From: a virus | Taxonomy: Duplodnaviria > Heunggongvirae > Uroviricota > Caudoviricetes | IMG/VR virus record: IMGVR_UViG_2700989509_000013 | DNA length: 9,417 nt | Reading direction: 5' to 3' (one strand) | Made by a program: the position numbers and the translations under genes | Part shown: positions 256 to 6,210 of the stretch, one piece after another | Numbering within the stretch: the first letter of the stretch is position 1 | How the letters are laid out: the number at the start of each line of letters is the position of its first letter | Notes under the pieces: generated by a model | Told to the model about the DNA's origin: nothing | Database searches by the model: none | What the model saw: only the letters and a program-made list of their open reading frames with translations

Positions 256-456
256 GAAAATAAAGGGATAACGATGATAGTTTGAGAAAAACAGAAATAA
301 CACTTTTGTGGCAAAGCATGGTGCCGGGTGCCTCCCGGTGAATTCAGTATCAGCACCTGAATCCGCGATTACCCCATATTCCTTCTTGCTGATTGCCCCA
401 CCGCACAGGGGGATTCACCATGCAGAAGTGTTTTTAATAAACAGCAAACAAAAAAA

Positions 457-1209: not shown

Positions 1210-1225
1210 GGGAAAATAAGTGTAG

Positions 1226-1299
1226 CGCGTTGTACTGGAGTCGAACCAGTGACCGATTGCTTAGAAGGCAATTGCTCTGTCCTGCTGAGCTAACAACGC
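1226..1299 (-). tRNA. tRNA-Arg (anticodon UCU)
   Basis: Clean cloverleaf on the minus strand: acceptor GCGTTGT/ACAACGC, D-arm GCTC/GAGC, anticodon stem ATTGC/GCAAT with loop CTTCTAA, T-arm ACTGG-TTCGACT-CCAGT. CCA not encoded. Confidence 0.9.
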
Positions 1300-1312
1300 A
1301 GAATACCGATAA

Positions 1313-1388
1313 TGGACCACCACCGGGGACTCGAACCTCGCACACTCAACTTAAAGGGTTGACGCTCTTTCCTGATGGCTAGTGGCGG
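1313..1388 (-). tRNA. tRNA-like gene, structurally degenerate (possible pseudo-tRNA; anticodon loop CCUUUAA would read UUU)
   Basis: Acceptor CCGCCAC/GTGGTGG pairs (one G-U) and CCA is encoded; anticodon stem TCAAC/GTTGA is perfect. D-stem has only 2 pairs (GCCA vs GAGC), T-stem has an A-C mismatch, position 33 is C not U, discriminator is U. Confidence 0.45.
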
Positions 1389-1389
1389 T

Positions 1390-1465
1390 TGGTGGCCCTT
1401 GCTGGATTTGAACCAGCGACCTGGCGATTATGAGTCGCTCGCTCTCACCACTGAGCTAAAGGGCC
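1390..1465 (-). tRNA. tRNA with anticodon CAU (Ile2/Met type, ileX/ileZ-like), CCA encoded
   Basis: GGCCCTTTAGCTCAGTGGTGAGAGCGAGCGACTCATAATCGCCAGGTCGCTGGTTCAAATCCAGCAAGGGCCACCA: 7-bp acceptor, GCTC/GAGC D-stem, loop CTCATAA, T-arm GCTGG-TTCAAAT-CCAGC. Closely resembles remembered E. coli ileX. Confidence 0.9.
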
Positions 1466-2712: not shown

Positions 2713-3768
2713 TCATGCTTTCCACTTCAGGACACCCGAATTTCTCGCGTGCATTAAAAAACGAATCAGCAACAACAACTGACTACCGTGTTTTTCTTCA
2801 AAATCTTTTACCCCGGCGTGTAGTTCGTTATGGCATTTACGACACAGCGGAATAACAAACAAATCGTCAGCCTTTGTTCCCATCCCTCCCAGTCCATGAC
2901 CAATGATGTGATGCGGATCATCTGCCTGATTACCGCACGTCATGCATTTCTGCGTTTTTACCCAGCGCGTGTATACAGGCATCTCTTCCCGTTGTGGTTT
3001 CTGGCGCTGGAGATACTGAGCCGGTGACTCCGGATCAACGGCAATGCTGACCACCGTCTTTTCCTGTGGCGGGTTTTGCTGGTGGGCGTGAGGCAGCGGC
3101 GCAAGATTTTTTGTGCGCTGCTTCAGTATGCTGGTGGCGGTCTGCTCTCCCGGTACGATGTCGCTTTCACGGTACATTGAGCGGATTTTTTCCGCCGGTA
3201 ATCCCAGAGAACGACGCGATACTGCCTCAGGTAATGCGTCCACCACCTGATTGCAGACTGCCCACCAGGATAATTCAGCCAGCGATAATTCCCGTTCCTG
3301 TGTGCTATTCATTGCGTGGCGGATGACGTCAATCATCCATGCTGACAGATTTTGATGAGCAAGTTGCCCGAGTGATTCGGATGTCTGGTCACGCAGCTGG
3401 TTGTCGCAGTGCCAGCACAACACCATTGCGCCGGTACCATAACGGTGAATGACGGTTTCGCTGTGATGATAATCGCCGTGTGGCCACTGGCAGGATTTAA
3501 TATGGCGCAACAGCCAGTCAGACAATGCACCAGCACCACCAGCAGCACGAATCACACGCTCATTGCTGAAAAATGGCAGTAATGATTTATCTTCCGCCAG
3601 CGGCTGGCGAACGGCAGGAACGACCCCGGACGGCAGATTACGCATGCTTTTCGGTTCAGACTCCACCAGCACCCTGCCGCCATGAAATACCCGCATGGAT
3701 TCACGGCCTGGCTTAACGATAACCACCCCGAGTTCCGGTACCAGAACAGGTCGAAGTAATACCCGCAC
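2713..3768 (-). CDS. DUF968 (YdfU-like) protein with C-terminal Cys/His HNH-like motif
   Basis: 351-codon ORF; C-terminus CMTCGNQADDPHHIIGHGLGGMGTKADDLFVIPLCRKCHNELH is the characteristic motif. Codon at 3766-3768 is GTG; first ATG is at 3694-3696 (MRVFHGG…), so the start is ambiguous. Confidence 0.85.
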   Translation of the reverse strand: MRVLLRPVLVPELGVVIVKPGRESMRVFHGGRVLVESEPKSMRNLPSGVVPAVRQPLAEDKSLLPFFSNERVIRAAGGAGALSDWLLRHIKSCQWPHGDYHHSETVIHRYGTGAMVLCWHCDNQLRDQTSESLGQLAHQNLSAWMIDVIRHAMNSTQERELSLAELSWWAVCNQVVDALPEAVSRRSLGLPAEKIRSMYRESDIVPGEQTATSILKQRTKNLAPLPHAHQQNPPQEKTVVSIAVDPESPAQYLQRQKPQREEMPVYTRWVKTQKCMTCGNQADDPHHIIGHGLGGMGTKADDLFVIPLCRKCHNELHAGVKDFEEKHGSQLLLLIRFLMHARNSGVLKWKA

Positions 3769-4400: not shown

Positions 4401-4428
4401 AACAACAAAAAACCCGCCGAAGCGGGTT
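4401..4428 (-). terminator. Rho-independent terminator at the 3' end of the hok transcript
   Basis: Minus-strand hairpin AACCCGC-TTCG-GCGGGTT (4411-4428) followed by UUUUGUUGUU; about 70 nt past the hok stop. Confidence 0.5.
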
Positions 4429-4496
4429 AAGTGCGGGTGCGTTGAGGATGCCTGACACATCAGAGGTGGCGAGGGATTTCTCCCCCGCCGGGTCTC

Positions 4497-4652
4497 TTAC
4501 TCCTCAGGTTCGTAAACTGTGAAGACAGCGACCTCCGTCTGGCCGGTTCGGATTCGTACCTCGCAGAGGTCTTTCCTCGTTACCAGTGCCGTCACTATGA
4601 CGGTTAAACAGATGACGATCAGGGCGATTAACATCGCCTTTTGCTGCTTCAT
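4497..4652 (-). CDS. hok: Hok-family type I toxin (HokD/RelF-like), 51 aa
   Basis: MKQQKAMLIALIVICLTVIVTALVTRKDLCEVRIRTGQTEVAVFTVYEPEE is a near-exact match to remembered HokD. ATG at 4650-4652 with AAGGAG 9 nt upstream; an in-frame upstream ATG at 4709 gives the 70-aa track ORF. Confidence 0.9.
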   Translation of the reverse strand: MKQQKAMLIALIVICLTVIVTALVTRKDLCEVRIRTGQTEVAVFTVYEPEE

Positions 4653-4830
4653 AGCCTGCTTCTCCTTGCCTTTCGGCACGTAAGAGGCTAACCTACATTT
4701 GTGAGACATAGATTGGGCCTCAGATTAATGTTAAGCGTCTTGCAGGACGCCGAATGTTAACTGGGGCTTTTCTCTATCTGCCTTTGGTGTTCATGCCTGA
4801 GACAGATAGCCTCAAGCACCCGCAGCCATT
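4653..4830 (-). promoter_or_regulatory. hok mRNA leader region (expected site of mok-like overlap, fold-back elements and antisense Sok-like RNA; not resolved)
   Basis: Position relative to hok plus inverted repeat CTATCTG/CAGATAG at about 4769-4808. Sok promoter could not be pinned down by eye. Confidence 0.3.
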
Positions 4831-5114
4831 CTACTTAACTCCCGTTACCTCGCCAATATGAAATCAATCAGAAAGGTGCTCCATAAGAACAATAACAAGA
4901 CAATAAATTGCCATTACAGCCGCAATAGCCAGCGCACATTTCAGAACCAGCACGATGACCTCCCATATTTGACGTACACGCGCATGATTCAATATGTAGC
5001 AACCTATTTCTTGCTTCAATATAAAATCAGGTATTGTTGCATAACTATTTAACTGACTCCCTATCCCCACATCTCAGGCGCTCAACTTCTGTGTGCGGGG
5101 CGTTTTTTAATACC

Positions 5115-5198
5115 TTACCCCCAGCGGCAAATCGAATACACCACCAGCGCCACCGCTATCGCAATTCCTACCGTTGTAAATGCTTCAGGCCAGGTCAT
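5115..5198 (-). CDS. 27-aa hydrophobic peptide (single predicted TM helix), translationally coupled to upstream gene
   Basis: ATG 5196-5198 overlaps the TGA of the 187-aa gene (ATGA); GAGGA lies 9 nt upstream. Translation MTWPEAFTTVGIAIAVALVVYSICRWG, stop TAA at 5115-5117. Not in ORF track. Confidence 0.4.
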   Translation of the reverse strand: MTWPEAFTTVGIAIAVALVVYSICRWG

Positions 5199-5758
5199 CG
5201 CAAAATATCCTCCGCGCTTATCAGTCCGTTTCGCTTCAGGTAGTCCATCGCCTTCTCCGGTAATTTGCAGTCCGGCTTAGCTTTTTTCAGTTGGCTGACC
5301 AGTCGCTTAACCCACATTGTTAATTCGCTAACCTGATTGCCGGATGCTGGGGGATTGTCGGCTTTACCCAGAATGGCAGCACAGCAGGCCTCTTTGAGTA
5401 CCCAATCAACAGCGTCTTTCCATGCTCCTGTTTCGACTGGAGGATTCTCACGCCGTACCTGTTCATAAAAGCGCACAGCTTTAACCAGTCCTTCAGGCAC
5501 TACCGGCACAGGTGGAGCGACGAATAGTGGTTTAGGTGATATCTCCGCACGTTTTGCGTATGCTTCAACTATATCAGGATTAAACAGGATTATGTTTTCG
5601 CCGCATTCCCACGCTATCGGTTCTGCTTCCAGCGATGCCAATGCAATTTTGAATAACTCACCCTCTACTCGTGCCATCCCTGAATTGGGATGGCATTTCG
5701 CAATCGCTATTTTTAATTTAGCTTCTTCGATTAATTGCTCTTTGGTTAATTCAGTCAT
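5195..5758 (-). CDS. Hypothetical protein, 187 aa, no recognised domain
   Basis: Intact ORF MTELTKEQLIEEAKLKIAIAKCHPNSG…AEDILR. Start ATG at 5756-5758 lies inside a 4-codon uORF (ATG 5763-5765, MKND*) and downstream of a hairpin; coding-like composition. Confidence 0.6.
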   Translation of the reverse strand: MTELTKEQLIEEAKLKIAIAKCHPNSGMARVEGELFKIALASLEAEPIAWECGENIILFNPDIVEAYAKRAEISPKPLFVAPPVPVVPEGLVKAVRFYEQVRRENPPVETGAWKDAVDWVLKEACCAAILGKADNPPASGNQVSELTMWVKRLVSQLKKAKPDCKLPEKAMDYLKRNGLISAEDILR

Positions 5759-5767
5759 TTTTCATTA

Positions 5768-5789
5768 CCGCCCTTTCAGGCGGTCTCCT
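5768..5789 (-). promoter_or_regulatory. Hairpin between Shine-Dalgarno and start codon of the 187-aa gene
   Basis: Minus strand reads AGGAGA (plus 5784-5789), then stem CCGCC/GGCGG (5768-5772 with 5779-5783) with 6-nt loop, then UA-AUG. Folded, the SD-to-AUG spacing drops from about 19 nt to about 3. Confidence 0.3.
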
Positions 5790-5853
5790 GATGTTCTGAG
5801 GGTGCAGAAATCCCTCCGGTTAAGGATTAAATTTTTAACAGTGCTAAATTTAA

Positions 5854-6210
5854 TTATTCAGTTCTTGATTTTGCCGCCCTGCGTATACGTGCTTTCGCGT
5901 TACGCTCAATCTGAATTAGCTTTTCTATATTTCTCCGCCTTTCCCGTTCCTCCTGGCGCAAGAGCCTTACATCATCTGCCAGTCTGGTTTCTCTTTTCGC
6001 CATAGAGAGCATCCAGTCAAATGGCTCCACAACTGCACCGCAGATTTTACAGCGGACCTGACGCACTTTTTCGTCAACCCGGACAGAAGCGTGATGGCAA
6101 TATGGTCTTTCCGATGGCTCATAAAGAAAATTAACCTGATTACGTGGGTCATCCTCTTTTACCGGAAATAAAACAATATTACTTAACTCATCTTCTGGTT
6201 TTATTTCCAT
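5854..6210 (-). CDS. Hypothetical protein, 118 aa, possible zinc-ribbon (C-HH…C-x2-C) with basic C-terminal tail
   Basis: ATG 6208-6210 with AGGAGAGG 6 nt upstream. Contains YCHHASVRVDEKVRQVRCKICG and an Arg/Lys/Glu-rich C-terminal third. Overlaps the upstream gene by 23 nt. Confidence 0.6.
   Translation of the reverse strand: MEIKPEDELSNIVLFPVKEDDPRNQVNFLYEPSERPYCHHASVRVDEKVRQVRCKICGAVVEPFDWMLSMAKRETRLADDVRLLRQEERERRRNIEKLIQIERNAKARIRRAAKSRTE

What the first reader, a model, noticed from the sequence alone, without database searches (positions are those of the whole stretch)
5115..5790. Candidate two-gene module: 187-aa protein with hairpin-split RBS and uORF, coupled to a 27-aa membrane peptide
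This is the strongest candidate for something undescribed in the window. The 187-aa gene sits in the variable slot between replication genes and hok, matches nothing I recognise, and has an unusual initiation region: AGGAG, then a 5-bp hairpin, then a 4-codon uORF whose stop overlaps codons 2-3 of the main ORF. Its TGA overlaps the ATG of a 27-aa single-helix peptide (MTWPEAFTTVGIAIAVALVVYSICRWG) with its own Shine-Dalgarno. A soluble protein coupled to a tiny membrane peptide is the layout of several toxin/immunity and abortive-infection pairs, but function here is unknown.
Basis: partly seen in the sequence, partly recalled or inferred. Interest (0 to 1): 0.55.

Follow-up and report, generated by a model that had tools for sequence, protein, structure and literature searches.

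The report
Two separate mosaic prophage accessory genes
The 187-aa gene and the 27-aa membrane peptide are both real, but they are two separately shuffled accessory genes of E. coli lambdoid prophages, not a dedicated pair; the tiny peptide gene sits in about a quarter of E. coli genomes, was not annotated as its own gene in its 27-codon form in any record I inspected, and is the only mildly interesting part.

Summary
This includes the 187-aa ORF (5758-5195), the 27-aa hydrophobic ORF (5198-5115) joined to it by an ATGA overlap, an AGGAG, a hairpin (7 bp with a GAAA loop, not 5 bp) and a 4-codon upstream ORF.

The "two-gene module" reading fails. The peptide DNA occurs in 1232 of 5426 complete E. 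coli genomes. The 3' module of the 187-aa gene occurs in only 470, and the two are contiguous in 288. The peptide follows at least five different upstream gene ends, from at least three unrelated protein types (DUF551 proteins, a Zn-ribbon/coiled-coil protein and others). It always has a GGAGG and nearly always the ATGA overlap.

The peptide looks like a genuine gene. About 92% of 98 distinct contexts keep 27 codons, dN/dS is about 0.3, and replacements are mostly hydrophobic or small.

The 187-aa protein belongs to PHROG 660 (function unknown). It is a mosaic of helical modules shared with Ead/Ea22- and DUF551-bearing proteins, and it matches no defence family and no solved fold.

The uORF is not conserved, and the hairpin shows no covariation. 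Function remains unknown, so this is ordinary prophage mosaicism plus one under-annotated microprotein.

The parts
5195..5758 (-). 187-aa accessory early gene, a mosaic of modules. Module A is aa 1-50 (w5758-5609), A2 is aa 51-80 (w5608-5519), B is aa 81-131 (w5518-5366) and C is aa 132-187 (w5365-5198). The stop is at w5197-5195.
   Evidence: The ORF is listed. PHROG 660 matches full length at E 5e-80, with partial matches to phrog_5117 (aa 1-130), phrog_924 (aa 117-187) and phrog_60. Pfam, NCBIfam and PADLOC give no hit. Homologues share only aa 1-131 or only aa 78-187. The AF2 model has pLDDT 77.9, with the N-terminal domain (aa 1-80) above 90. No informative fold match was found.
5115..5198 (-). 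27-aa single-pass membrane microprotein gene (MTWPEAFTTVGIAIAVALVVYSICRWG). It behaves as a portable cassette made of SD, ATGA, ORF and stop.
   Evidence: The ORF is listed. Its DNA is in 1232 of 5426 E. coli genomes, at 1551 places. Of 98 unique contexts about 92% keep 27 codons; the rest include in-frame deletions and stop-loss extensions. dN/dS is 0.26-0.31, against 1.5-2.5 in the non-mirrored frames. KD hydropathy of residues 6-24 is 2.25. The common allele is deposited in NCBI as 'bacteriophage protein' or 'hypothetical protein'.
5208..5213 (-). Shine-Dalgarno sequence (GGAGGA) of the peptide, lying inside the last codons of the 187-aa gene
   Evidence: The sequence is. A GGAGG-type motif lies 7-11 nt before the start codon in all 98 unique contexts, within at least five different upstream gene ends.
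5785..5789 (-). AGGAG, the candidate Shine-Dalgarno sequence of the 187-aa gene. It is 26 nt from the AUG in the linear sequence and 8 nt away if the hairpin forms.
   Evidence: The sequence is. It is conserved as AGGAG(G/A) in most related upstream regions.
5767..5784 (-). Hairpin between the SD and the AUG: a 7-bp stem with a GAAA tetraloop
   Evidence: Folding is (z -4.0). Over 15 variants, 93% of cells are paired, no pair changes on both sides and 4 pairs change on one side only. Some relatives lack the hairpin or have a recombination joint inside it.
5751..5765 (-). 4-codon upstream mini-ORF (AUG AAA AAU GAC UGA). It is not conserved and is probably incidental.
   Evidence: The sequence is. 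The commonest relative has the AUG in frame after a 1-nt deletion. AUA and GUG variants also exist.
5854..6210 (-). Upstream neighbour: a 118-aa Zn-ribbon/coiled-coil protein (phrog_1621). It is context rather than part of the pair, but its homologues directly precede the peptide in other prophages.
   Evidence: PHROG and Pfam results are. BLASTP to the 131-aa peptide-adjacent protein from L091 gives E 2e-13.
4497..4821 (-). Downstream neighbour: the hok/sok locus (Rfam sok at w4821-4647; hokD CDS at about w4652-4497). The hok leader directly follows the peptide in about one third of contexts.
   Evidence: Rfam match RF01794, 116.9 bits. The hokD annotation is in EC12.

Best explanation
The region holds two adjacent accessory genes that are inherited separately. 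They lie in the early (nin-like) operon of a Rac/lambdoid-type E. coli prophage, between the replication genes and hok.

Gene 1 (187 aa) is a non-enzymatic, mostly helical mosaic protein. Its three or four modules are shuffled among hundreds of Escherichia prophage proteins, some of which carry Ead/Ea22 or DUF551 domains. By inference, it is an Ea22-like early protein that works by binding other proteins rather than by catalysis. It is probably translated from an AGGAG that a stable hairpin brings to about 8 nt from the AUG. That would be a split ribosome-binding site like those of T4 genes 25 and 38. The 4-codon uORF is incidental.

Gene 2 (27 aa) is a genuine, portable microprotein cassette of about 100 nt (GGAGG, spacer, ATGA, 27 codons, stop). 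It attaches to the 3' end of whichever gene is last in such an array. It is translated from its own SD, helped by termination-reinitiation at the ATGA overlap. By inference, the product is a single-pass inner-membrane helix with the acidic N-terminus outside and R25 inside. It has a face of small residues (G11/A13/A15/A17). It probably acts on its own at the host membrane during early lytic development, by self-association or by binding a host membrane protein, and not as a partner of the 187-aa protein.

Shown: the anatomy, the mosaicism, the independent distribution, purifying selection and SD conservation. Inferred: translation, topology, timing and the activity of both proteins.
For: Context. 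The closest complete genome, EC12, places the pair between the DUF977/replisome-organizer genes and hokD in a prophage.

Mosaicism of gene 1.
- PHROG 660 matches full length, with partial PHROG matches alongside.
- Homologues of 135 aa share aa 1-131. Homologues of 171 and 210 aa share aa 78-187 behind other N-termini.
- The search of 50%-identity representatives found 552 clusters with piecewise matches.
- Among 144 sequences (the query plus 143 representatives), 17 carry DUF551 and 5 carry Ead_Ea22.
- Ea22 proteins are described as mosaic, with DUF551 as a portable domain (PMC10834534).
- No enzyme or defence signature was found.

Independence of the peptide.
- The genome counts are 1232 (peptide), 470 (C module) and 288 (both contiguous).
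- Of 78 viral loci with the C module, 30 have the peptide and 47 lack it.
- At least five different upstream gene ends and many different downstream sequences flank the peptide.
- It lies next to a DUF551 gene in O157:H7, next to a 114-aa gene in O26, and near xis/int in ST131.
- Of 83 unique upstream partners, 45 carry module C, 17 carry only module A and 21 carry neither. Those 21 include DUF551 proteins and a homologue of the Zn-ribbon protein.

Reality of the peptide gene.
- ORF length is kept in about 92% of 98 contexts. The exceptions include in-frame deletions and stop-loss extensions.
- dN/dS is about 0.3, even in codons 13-27, which lie outside the search pattern.
- Most replacements are to hydrophobic or small residues; a few introduce E or K in the helix.
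- GGAGG is present in 98 of 98 contexts.
- The ATGA or GTGA overlap is present in about 96% of contexts.

Split RBS. Hairpin stability is shown. The T4 gene 38 (22 to 5 nt) and gene 25 (27 to 11 nt) precedents are in PMC3014915.
Against: - No expression or proteomic evidence was found for either ORF. The peptide sequence is absent from the supplements of two small-ORF studies and from the searchable literature.
- The antisense frame that shares third-codon positions shows the same low dN/dS. Frame assignment therefore rests on ORF boundaries, the SD and hydrophobicity.
- All nine full-length 187-aa-type loci in the viral set carry the peptide. A local functional link in this sub-lineage cannot be excluded, although shared recent ancestry explains it.
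- The hairpin has no compensatory changes. Relatives with the same N-terminus use a plain AAGGAA-N7-AUG site, so the split RBS is optional.
- The peptide's activity is entirely inferred.
Confidence: 0.7

Rival explanations
1. Dedicated two-gene system. The 187-aa soluble protein and the 27-aa membrane peptide work together as a toxin/immunity or abortive-infection pair.
For: The two have a 4-nt ATGA overlap and the peptide has its own SD. All nine full-length 187-aa-type loci in the viral set carry the peptide. The slot next to hok and other TA genes is rich in accessory and defence cargo.
Against: The peptide occurs about 2.6 times more often than the C module, and only 288 of 1232 peptide-bearing genomes have the two together. 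Of 78 C-module loci, 47 lack the peptide. The peptide is coupled in the same way to DUF551 and Zn-ribbon proteins. PADLOC gives no hit. The 187-aa protein is itself a shuffled mosaic.
Confidence: 0.06
2. The 27-codon frame is not a gene. The 84-nt block would be a conserved non-coding element that happens to be open, such as a recombination linker or boundary sequence of lambdoid mosaics, or an upstream part of the hok locus.
For: The block is 90-97% identical at the DNA level across contexts. Mosaic joints fall exactly at its ends. About a third of copies abut the hok leader. The antisense frame shows an equal dN/dS. RefSeq rarely annotates it. No expression data were found.
Against: Third-position-biased substitution gives dN/dS of about 0.3. 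Start, stop and length are kept in about 92% of 98 contexts, and indels are in frame. GGAGG is maintained in several different upstream sequences. Replacements mostly preserve a hydrophobic helix, whereas the antisense open frame varies from 26 to 131 codons and contains stops in five contexts. Two thirds of copies are not next to hok.
Confidence: 0.12
3. The peptide is a generic membrane partner of the whole Ea22/DUF551-type mosaic family. It would tether or regulate whichever family member is encoded just upstream, for example through the shared N-terminal 'IALASLEAEP' module.
For: Of 83 distinct upstream partners, 62 share module A and/or C with the 187-aa protein. Those tested from the rest are mostly DUF551 proteins of the same mosaic network. 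Coupling is invariably tight.
Against: Some partners (the Zn-ribbon/coiled-coil proteins, and 121-126-aa DUF551 proteins without module A) share no module with the others. Many family members, including most C-module genes in viral contigs, have no peptide. The adjacency can be explained simply by both being cargo of the same accessory arrays.
Confidence: 0.1

Closest known systems
Ea22 / Ead-family mosaic early proteins of lambda and Stx phages (exo-xis region), and DUF551-bearing prophage proteins such as YfdS
   Same: These are small, acidic, largely helical early accessory proteins built from portable modules and shuffled among Escherichia lambdoid prophages. Relatives that share modules with the 187-aa protein carry Ead_Ea22 or DUF551 domains. 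The mosaic nature is described in PMC10834534. The same DNA segments occur in exo-xis regions of Stx phages.
   Different: The 187-aa protein itself scores for neither Pfam family. It sits in the nin-like region rather than the exo-xis region, and it has no long central coiled coil in the model. Ea22's pro-lysogenic activity cannot be transferred to it.
Split Shine-Dalgarno initiation regions of T4 genes 38 and 25
   Same: The SD is too far from the AUG in the linear sequence (26 nt). A stable intervening hairpin would bring it to about 8 nt. In T4 gene 38 the distance falls from 22 to 5 nt, and in gene 25 from 27 to 11 nt (PMC3014915).
   Different: There is no mutational or probing evidence here. 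There are no compensatory substitutions. Relatives with the same N-terminus use an ordinary RBS or have lost the 5' arm of the hairpin.
Small hydrophobic bacterial and phage membrane proteins: type I toxins such as Hok, TisB and DinQ, and regulatory microproteins such as KdpF and AcrZ (these comparisons come from my own knowledge)
   Same: Similar size (27 aa), with one hydrophobic helix and a C-terminal basic/aromatic end. The peptide sits next to hok. One natural in-frame peptide::Hok fusion exists (P0359).
   Different: No antisense RNA or promoter of its own was found. It is translationally coupled to an upstream gene instead of being an autonomous, repressed locus. Similarity to KdpF and DUF883_C is insignificant (E 0.02-0.04). 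Toxicity has not been tested.

Membership tests
PHROG 660 (phage protein family of unknown function) | Full-length significant match to the family profile | tested here: met
   E 5.2e-80, residues 1-187 against profile positions 3-193 of 193
Ead/Ea22-like (Pfam PF13935) | Match to the Ead_Ea22 coiled-coil profile above the gathering score | tested here: not met
   No Pfam hit for the 187-aa protein. Only 5 of the 144 sequences sharing modules with it carry the domain.
DUF551 (Pfam PF04448) | C-terminal DUF551 domain (W-x-S-C ... HWMPLPEPP) | tested here: not met
   No hit for the 187-aa protein. DUF551 is present in other genes that precede the peptide.
Known anti-phage defence systems (PADLOC-DB v2) | Any component profile match | tested here: not met
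   No families for the 187-aa, 118-aa or 27-aa products, even at E up to 1
Obligate two-gene module (toxin/immunity or Abi pair) | The two genes co-occur wherever either is found | tested here: not met
   Peptide in 1232 genomes, C module in 470, both together in 288. Of 78 C-module loci, 47 lack the peptide.
Type I toxin-antitoxin (Hok-like and similar) | Small hydrophobic toxin ORF with its own promoter and an overlapping or adjacent antisense RNA | tested here: not met
   Rfam finds sok only at the true hok locus (w4647-4821), and nothing at the peptide. No promoter-like site lies near the peptide on either strand. The peptide is coupled to the upstream gene.
Type I toxin-antitoxin (Hok-like and similar) | Toxicity of the peptide on over-expression | not testable with these tools
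   Requires an experiment
Split-SD translation initiation region (T4 gene 25/38 type) | SD more than about 20 nt from the AUG, with a stable hairpin in between that restores a spacing of 5-11 nt | tested here: met
   AGGAG at w5789-5785, an 18-nt hairpin at w5784-5767, then 8 nt to the AUG. Hairpin z = -4.0.
Split-SD translation initiation region (T4 gene 25/38 type) | The structure is maintained in relatives (covariation) and needed for expression | tested here: inconclusive
   93% of cells are paired, but there are 0 compensatory pairs, 3 pairs depart only by mismatches, and some relatives lack the hairpin. Whether it is needed for expression cannot be tested here.
Protein-coding small ORF (genuine microprotein gene) | Conserved reading frame, purifying selection and a ribosome-binding site across independent contexts | tested here: met
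   About 92% of 98 contexts keep 27 codons. dN/dS is 0.26-0.31. GGAGG is present in 98 of 98 contexts. Translation itself was not tested.

The most novel reading that the evidence does not exclude
The roughly 100-nt cassette encodes an uncharacterised, Escherichia-restricted prophage microprotein carried by about 23% of complete E. coli genomes (up to five copies). In its 27-codon form it had no CDS of its own in any RefSeq record I inspected. In this reading it has a specific membrane activity during early phage development. That could be superinfection exclusion, membrane or host-transporter modulation, or tethering of the variable Ea22/DUF551-type protein encoded upstream. It would then be a new functional class of phage microprotein rather than a passive passenger.
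Probability: 0.25. Interest if true: 0.5.

Novelty: new member of a known kind. Interest (0 to 1): 0.3.

Why it matters
- It removes a false lead. The pair is not a new defence or toxin-immunity system.
- It documents a very common, well-conserved 27-codon gene that current RefSeq annotation largely misses. The gene is in O157:H7, O26 and ST131 prophages among others, and it would be cheap to test.
- It gives a tidy example of mosaic joints that fall at, and just upstream of, a 4-nt gene overlap, so that a tiny gene carries its own ribosome-binding site from one host gene to another.
- None of this changes how prophage accessory regions are understood.

Tried and rejected
1. A plus-strand intrinsic terminator at w5066-5110, which would have implied an antisense gene ending there. 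Folding gave z = -0.64, with 50 of 200 shuffles folding as well, so I dropped it.
2. A natural fusion of the peptide to a 121-aa DUF551 protein, suggested by cluster membership. The sequences show no fusion, and the cluster is an artefact of partial, mis-framed entries.
3. Fold and structure leads.
   - The first AF2 model was too poor to use (pLDDT 58.9), and its Foldseek search against the PDB was meaningless.
   - Sequence and profile searches of the PDB found nothing.
4. The AFDB50 fold library was unavailable.
5. The 27-aa query was too short for the search for related loci and the search for homologous proteins. I replaced it with a degenerate DNA pattern and with the 44-aa stop-loss variant.
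6. Literature. There was no hit for the peptide sequence in the full-text search. There was also none in the supplements of the Sakai small-gene study or the Enterobacteriaceae microproteome study.
7. The uORF as a regulatory device was rejected because it is not conserved.

Full report
**Observation**

The 187-aa ORF runs from w5758 to w5195. The 27-aa ORF (MTWPEAFTTVGIAIAVALVVYSICRWG) runs from w5198 to w5115. The stop of the first overlaps the start of the second (ATGA, w5198-5195). A GGAGGA lies 9-10 nt upstream of the peptide ATG (w5213-5208).

Upstream of the 187-aa gene the sequence reads AGGAG (w5789-5785), then a hairpin (w5784-5767), then AAUGAAAA, then AUG. The hairpin has 7 bp and a GAAA tetraloop, not 5 bp. 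It is clearly stable: a 50-nt segment folds at -14.3 kcal/mol, z = -4.0, and none of 200 shuffles folds as well. The 4-codon ORF AUG AAA AAU GAC UGA (w5765-5751) is present, and its stop overlaps codons 2-3 of the main ORF.

**Context**

The best complete-genome match is a prophage of E. coli EC12. It is 99.9% identical over the 811 bases around the finding and 96.9% identical over 76% of the window. In EC12 the 187-aa gene (WP_024226627.1, 'hypothetical protein') follows the cI/cro-like genes, YdaT, the replisome organizer, DUF977 and a 118-aa hypothetical gene. It precedes hokD, DUF968, RusA and the Q antiterminator.

The 27-aa ORF is not annotated in EC12. In strain S163-2 a stop-loss version of 44 aa is annotated (WP_258188236.1). 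Rfam places the hok/sok leader at w4647-4821.

**The 187-aa protein**

- Pfam, NCBIfam and PADLOC give nothing significant.
- PHROG 660 (unknown function) matches over the full length at E 5e-80. Several other PHROGs match only parts.
- A homologue search returned 2410 proteins. Every source-named protein among the 120 listed is from Escherichia or Shigella.
- The exhaustive search of 50%-identity representatives returned 552 clusters, with matches to pieces of the query (aa 1-50, 30-93, 75-131, 124-187).
- BLAST of the first 120 hits shows the pattern clearly. Proteins of 135 aa share aa 1-131. Proteins of 171 and 210 aa share aa 78-187 behind unrelated N-termini.
- Among 144 sequences (the query plus 143 of these representatives), 17 carry DUF551 and 5 carry Ead_Ea22.

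This fits the published picture of Ea22 proteins as mosaics with portable C-terminal domains, including DUF551 (PMC10834534).

So this is a member of a known but uncharacterised family, with no enzymatic or defence signature. I infer that it binds other proteins, in the manner of Ea22. That is an inference only.

**Are the two ORFs a module?**

No.

- In 78 viral-contig loci that carry the 3' end of the 187-aa gene, 30 have the peptide with the ATGA overlap. In 47 the homology ends right at or after the stop and the peptide is absent. One locus is cut by a contig end.
- In 5426 complete E. coli genomes the 84-nt peptide DNA is found in 1232 genomes (1551 places, up to five per genome).
- The 164 nt encoding the C-terminal module are found in 470 genomes.
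- The two are contiguous in 288 genomes.
- So about a third of C-module genes lack the peptide, and about three quarters of peptide-bearing genomes have it behind something else.

Specific examples of other partners:
- In O157:H7 strain 86-24 the peptide follows a 185-aa DUF551 protein.
- In O26:H11 and in an ST131 strain it follows a 114-aa hypothetical protein.
- In the ST131 strain it lies in the early-left region next to xis/int, not in the nin-like region.

A degenerate-pattern scan of viral contigs gave 98 distinct 600-nt contexts. The upstream genes end in at least five different ways...EDILR*...PEPPQEVNQ*...NIEQEVNR*...HEEGDK* and others. The downstream sequences are also diverse. They include the hok leader in about a third of contexts, intrinsic terminators, and the start of another gene.

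Of 83 distinct upstream proteins, 45 contain the C module, 17 contain only the N-terminal module and 21 contain neither. The last group includes DUF551 proteins, one of them a dATP/dGTP pyrophosphohydrolase-DUF551 fusion. It also includes homologues of the window's own upstream Zn-ribbon/coiled-coil gene.

**Is the 27-codon frame a gene?**

The evidence is good, although indirect.

- Of the 98 contexts, about 90 keep a 27-codon ORF with an ATG or GTG start. Two have in-frame deletions (23 and 25 codons), three have lost the stop (38-44 codons), and one is frameshifted.
- Deposited variants include in-frame expansions of the hydrophobic core, giving 29-35 aa.
- On a minimum-spanning tree of 51 alleles, dN/dS is about 0.26 over the whole ORF. 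Over codons 13-27, which the search pattern did not constrain, it is about 0.31. Four control frames give 1.5-2.5.
- The antisense frame that shares third-codon positions mirrors the low value, as expected. That antisense frame is not a conserved ORF. Its stop-to-stop length ranges from 26 to 131 codons depending on the flanks, and it contains a stop in five contexts.
- Replacements in the sense frame are mostly hydrophobic or small: V to A, T, I, L or M. A few introduce E or K in the helix.
- Residues 6-24 have a mean hydropathy of 2.25.
- Every one of the 98 contexts has a GGAGG-type motif 7-11 nt before the start codon, embedded in at least five different upstream gene ends. About 96% have the ATGA or GTGA overlap.

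The portable unit therefore appears to be SD, spacer, ATGA, ORF and stop.

The common allele exists in NCBI as 'bacteriophage protein' or 'hypothetical protein'. There are 73 clusters of relatives, and all the named ones but a single Salmonella partial are from Escherichia or Shigella. A scan of one genome per species found the peptide only in E. coli, Shigella and one Escherichia sp. It also appeared on three tiny contigs in unrelated assemblies, which look like contamination.

I found no paper that mentions it. What it does is unknown. I favour an autonomous membrane role during early lytic growth, but that is inference.

**The initiation region**

Thirty-one distinct upstream regions of genes with the same N-terminal module were compared.

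- Most keep AGGAG(G), the hairpin and the AUG.
- The commonest variant has one A fewer, which puts the upstream AUG in frame (MKMTELT). Others have AUA or GUG at that position. The uORF is therefore not a conserved feature.
- Several relatives with the identical N-terminus have a plain AAGGAA-N7-AUG site and no hairpin.
- Four others have a recombination joint at or inside the hairpin; in three of them the AGGAG and the 5' arm are lost.
- Over 15 hairpin-bearing variants, 93% of cells pair. No pair changes on both sides, four change on one side only, and three depart only by mismatches.

The layout matches the split ribosome-binding sites of T4 genes 38 and 25, where a hairpin shortens an over-long SD-AUG distance (PMC3014915). 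Here the distance would fall from 26 to 8 nt. I regard this as plausible but optional, and unproven.

**Verdict**

The anatomy is confirmed. The peptide is very probably a real, widespread and under-annotated microprotein gene. The 187-aa protein is an ordinary mosaic member of an uncharacterised prophage family. The two are neighbours by shuffling, not partners. Nothing here departs from known kinds of prophage cargo. The peptide cassette is the one item worth a simple experiment.

Noticed in passing
L020:3454-3633 and L020:3630-3700: In loci where the C-module gene lacks the peptide, the slot before hok holds a different small hydrophobic ORF. It is about 59 aa from the ATG at 3454, has two predicted membrane helices and lies in an AT-rich segment. 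A roughly 60%-similar stretch follows that looks like a decayed 3' half of the peptide gene. The slot seems to collect small membrane-protein genes.
   Followed up: partly
protein P0359: A 44-aa deposited protein is an in-frame fusion of the first 15 residues of the peptide to the C-terminal part of a Hok toxin. It is annotated as a Hok family toxin. Presumably a deletion joined the two neighbouring genes.
   Followed up: no
proteins P0335, P0337, P0338, P0343 and P0288: Some alleles of the peptide carry in-frame repeat expansions inside the membrane helix (AMAMAMAMAV, AVAVAV, giving 29-35 aa). One carries a tandem duplication of the first 15 codons. The helix length is evidently tolerant.
   Followed up: no
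window 4861-4979 (minus strand): This 119-nt segment lies between the peptide and the hok promoter. It is present at about 90% identity in 1167 complete E. coli genomes and had no annotated feature in any of the 15 records listed. I did not determine what it is.
   Followed up: partly
window 5798-5816 (minus strand): A second conserved small hairpin (GAGGG-N9-CCCTC) lies in the intergenic region upstream of the AGGAG. It is kept in most related upstream regions.
   Followed up: no
L280, L282, L285 and L287: Recombination joints fall at or inside the SD-AUG hairpin. In L280, L282 and L285 only the 3' part (GGGCGGUAAUGAAAAUG) remains upstream of the same N-terminus. In L287 both arms remain but the AGGAG is replaced. 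The hairpin region is a hot spot for mosaic junctions.
   Followed up: partly
window 5854-6210 (minus strand): The upstream 118-aa gene is a Zn-ribbon (CxxC...CxxC) plus coiled-coil protein of phrog_1621, with no known function. Homologues with 29% identity directly precede the peptide cassette in other prophages.
   Followed up: partly
window 1225-1465 (minus strand): A cluster of three tRNA genes (Arg-tct, Lys-ttt, Met/Ile-cat) lies downstream of the Q antiterminator region. It differs from the four tRNAs (Ile, Lys, Thr, Gly) annotated at the matching place in EC12, so the window is a mosaic relative of that prophage and not the same one.
   Followed up: no
window 280-452 and 4407-4488 (minus strand): Rfam matches STnc100 (100.8 bits, above threshold) near the lysis genes. 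It also gives a sub-threshold isrK-like match (30.5 bits) overlapping the hok terminator hairpin at w4428-4411.
   Followed up: no
L206, L208 and L210: The peptide sequence occurs on very short contigs (369-1780 bp) of assemblies labelled Segatella copri MAG, Xanthomonas pisi and Acinetobacter idrijaensis. This is most likely E. coli or phage contamination of those assemblies.
   Followed up: no
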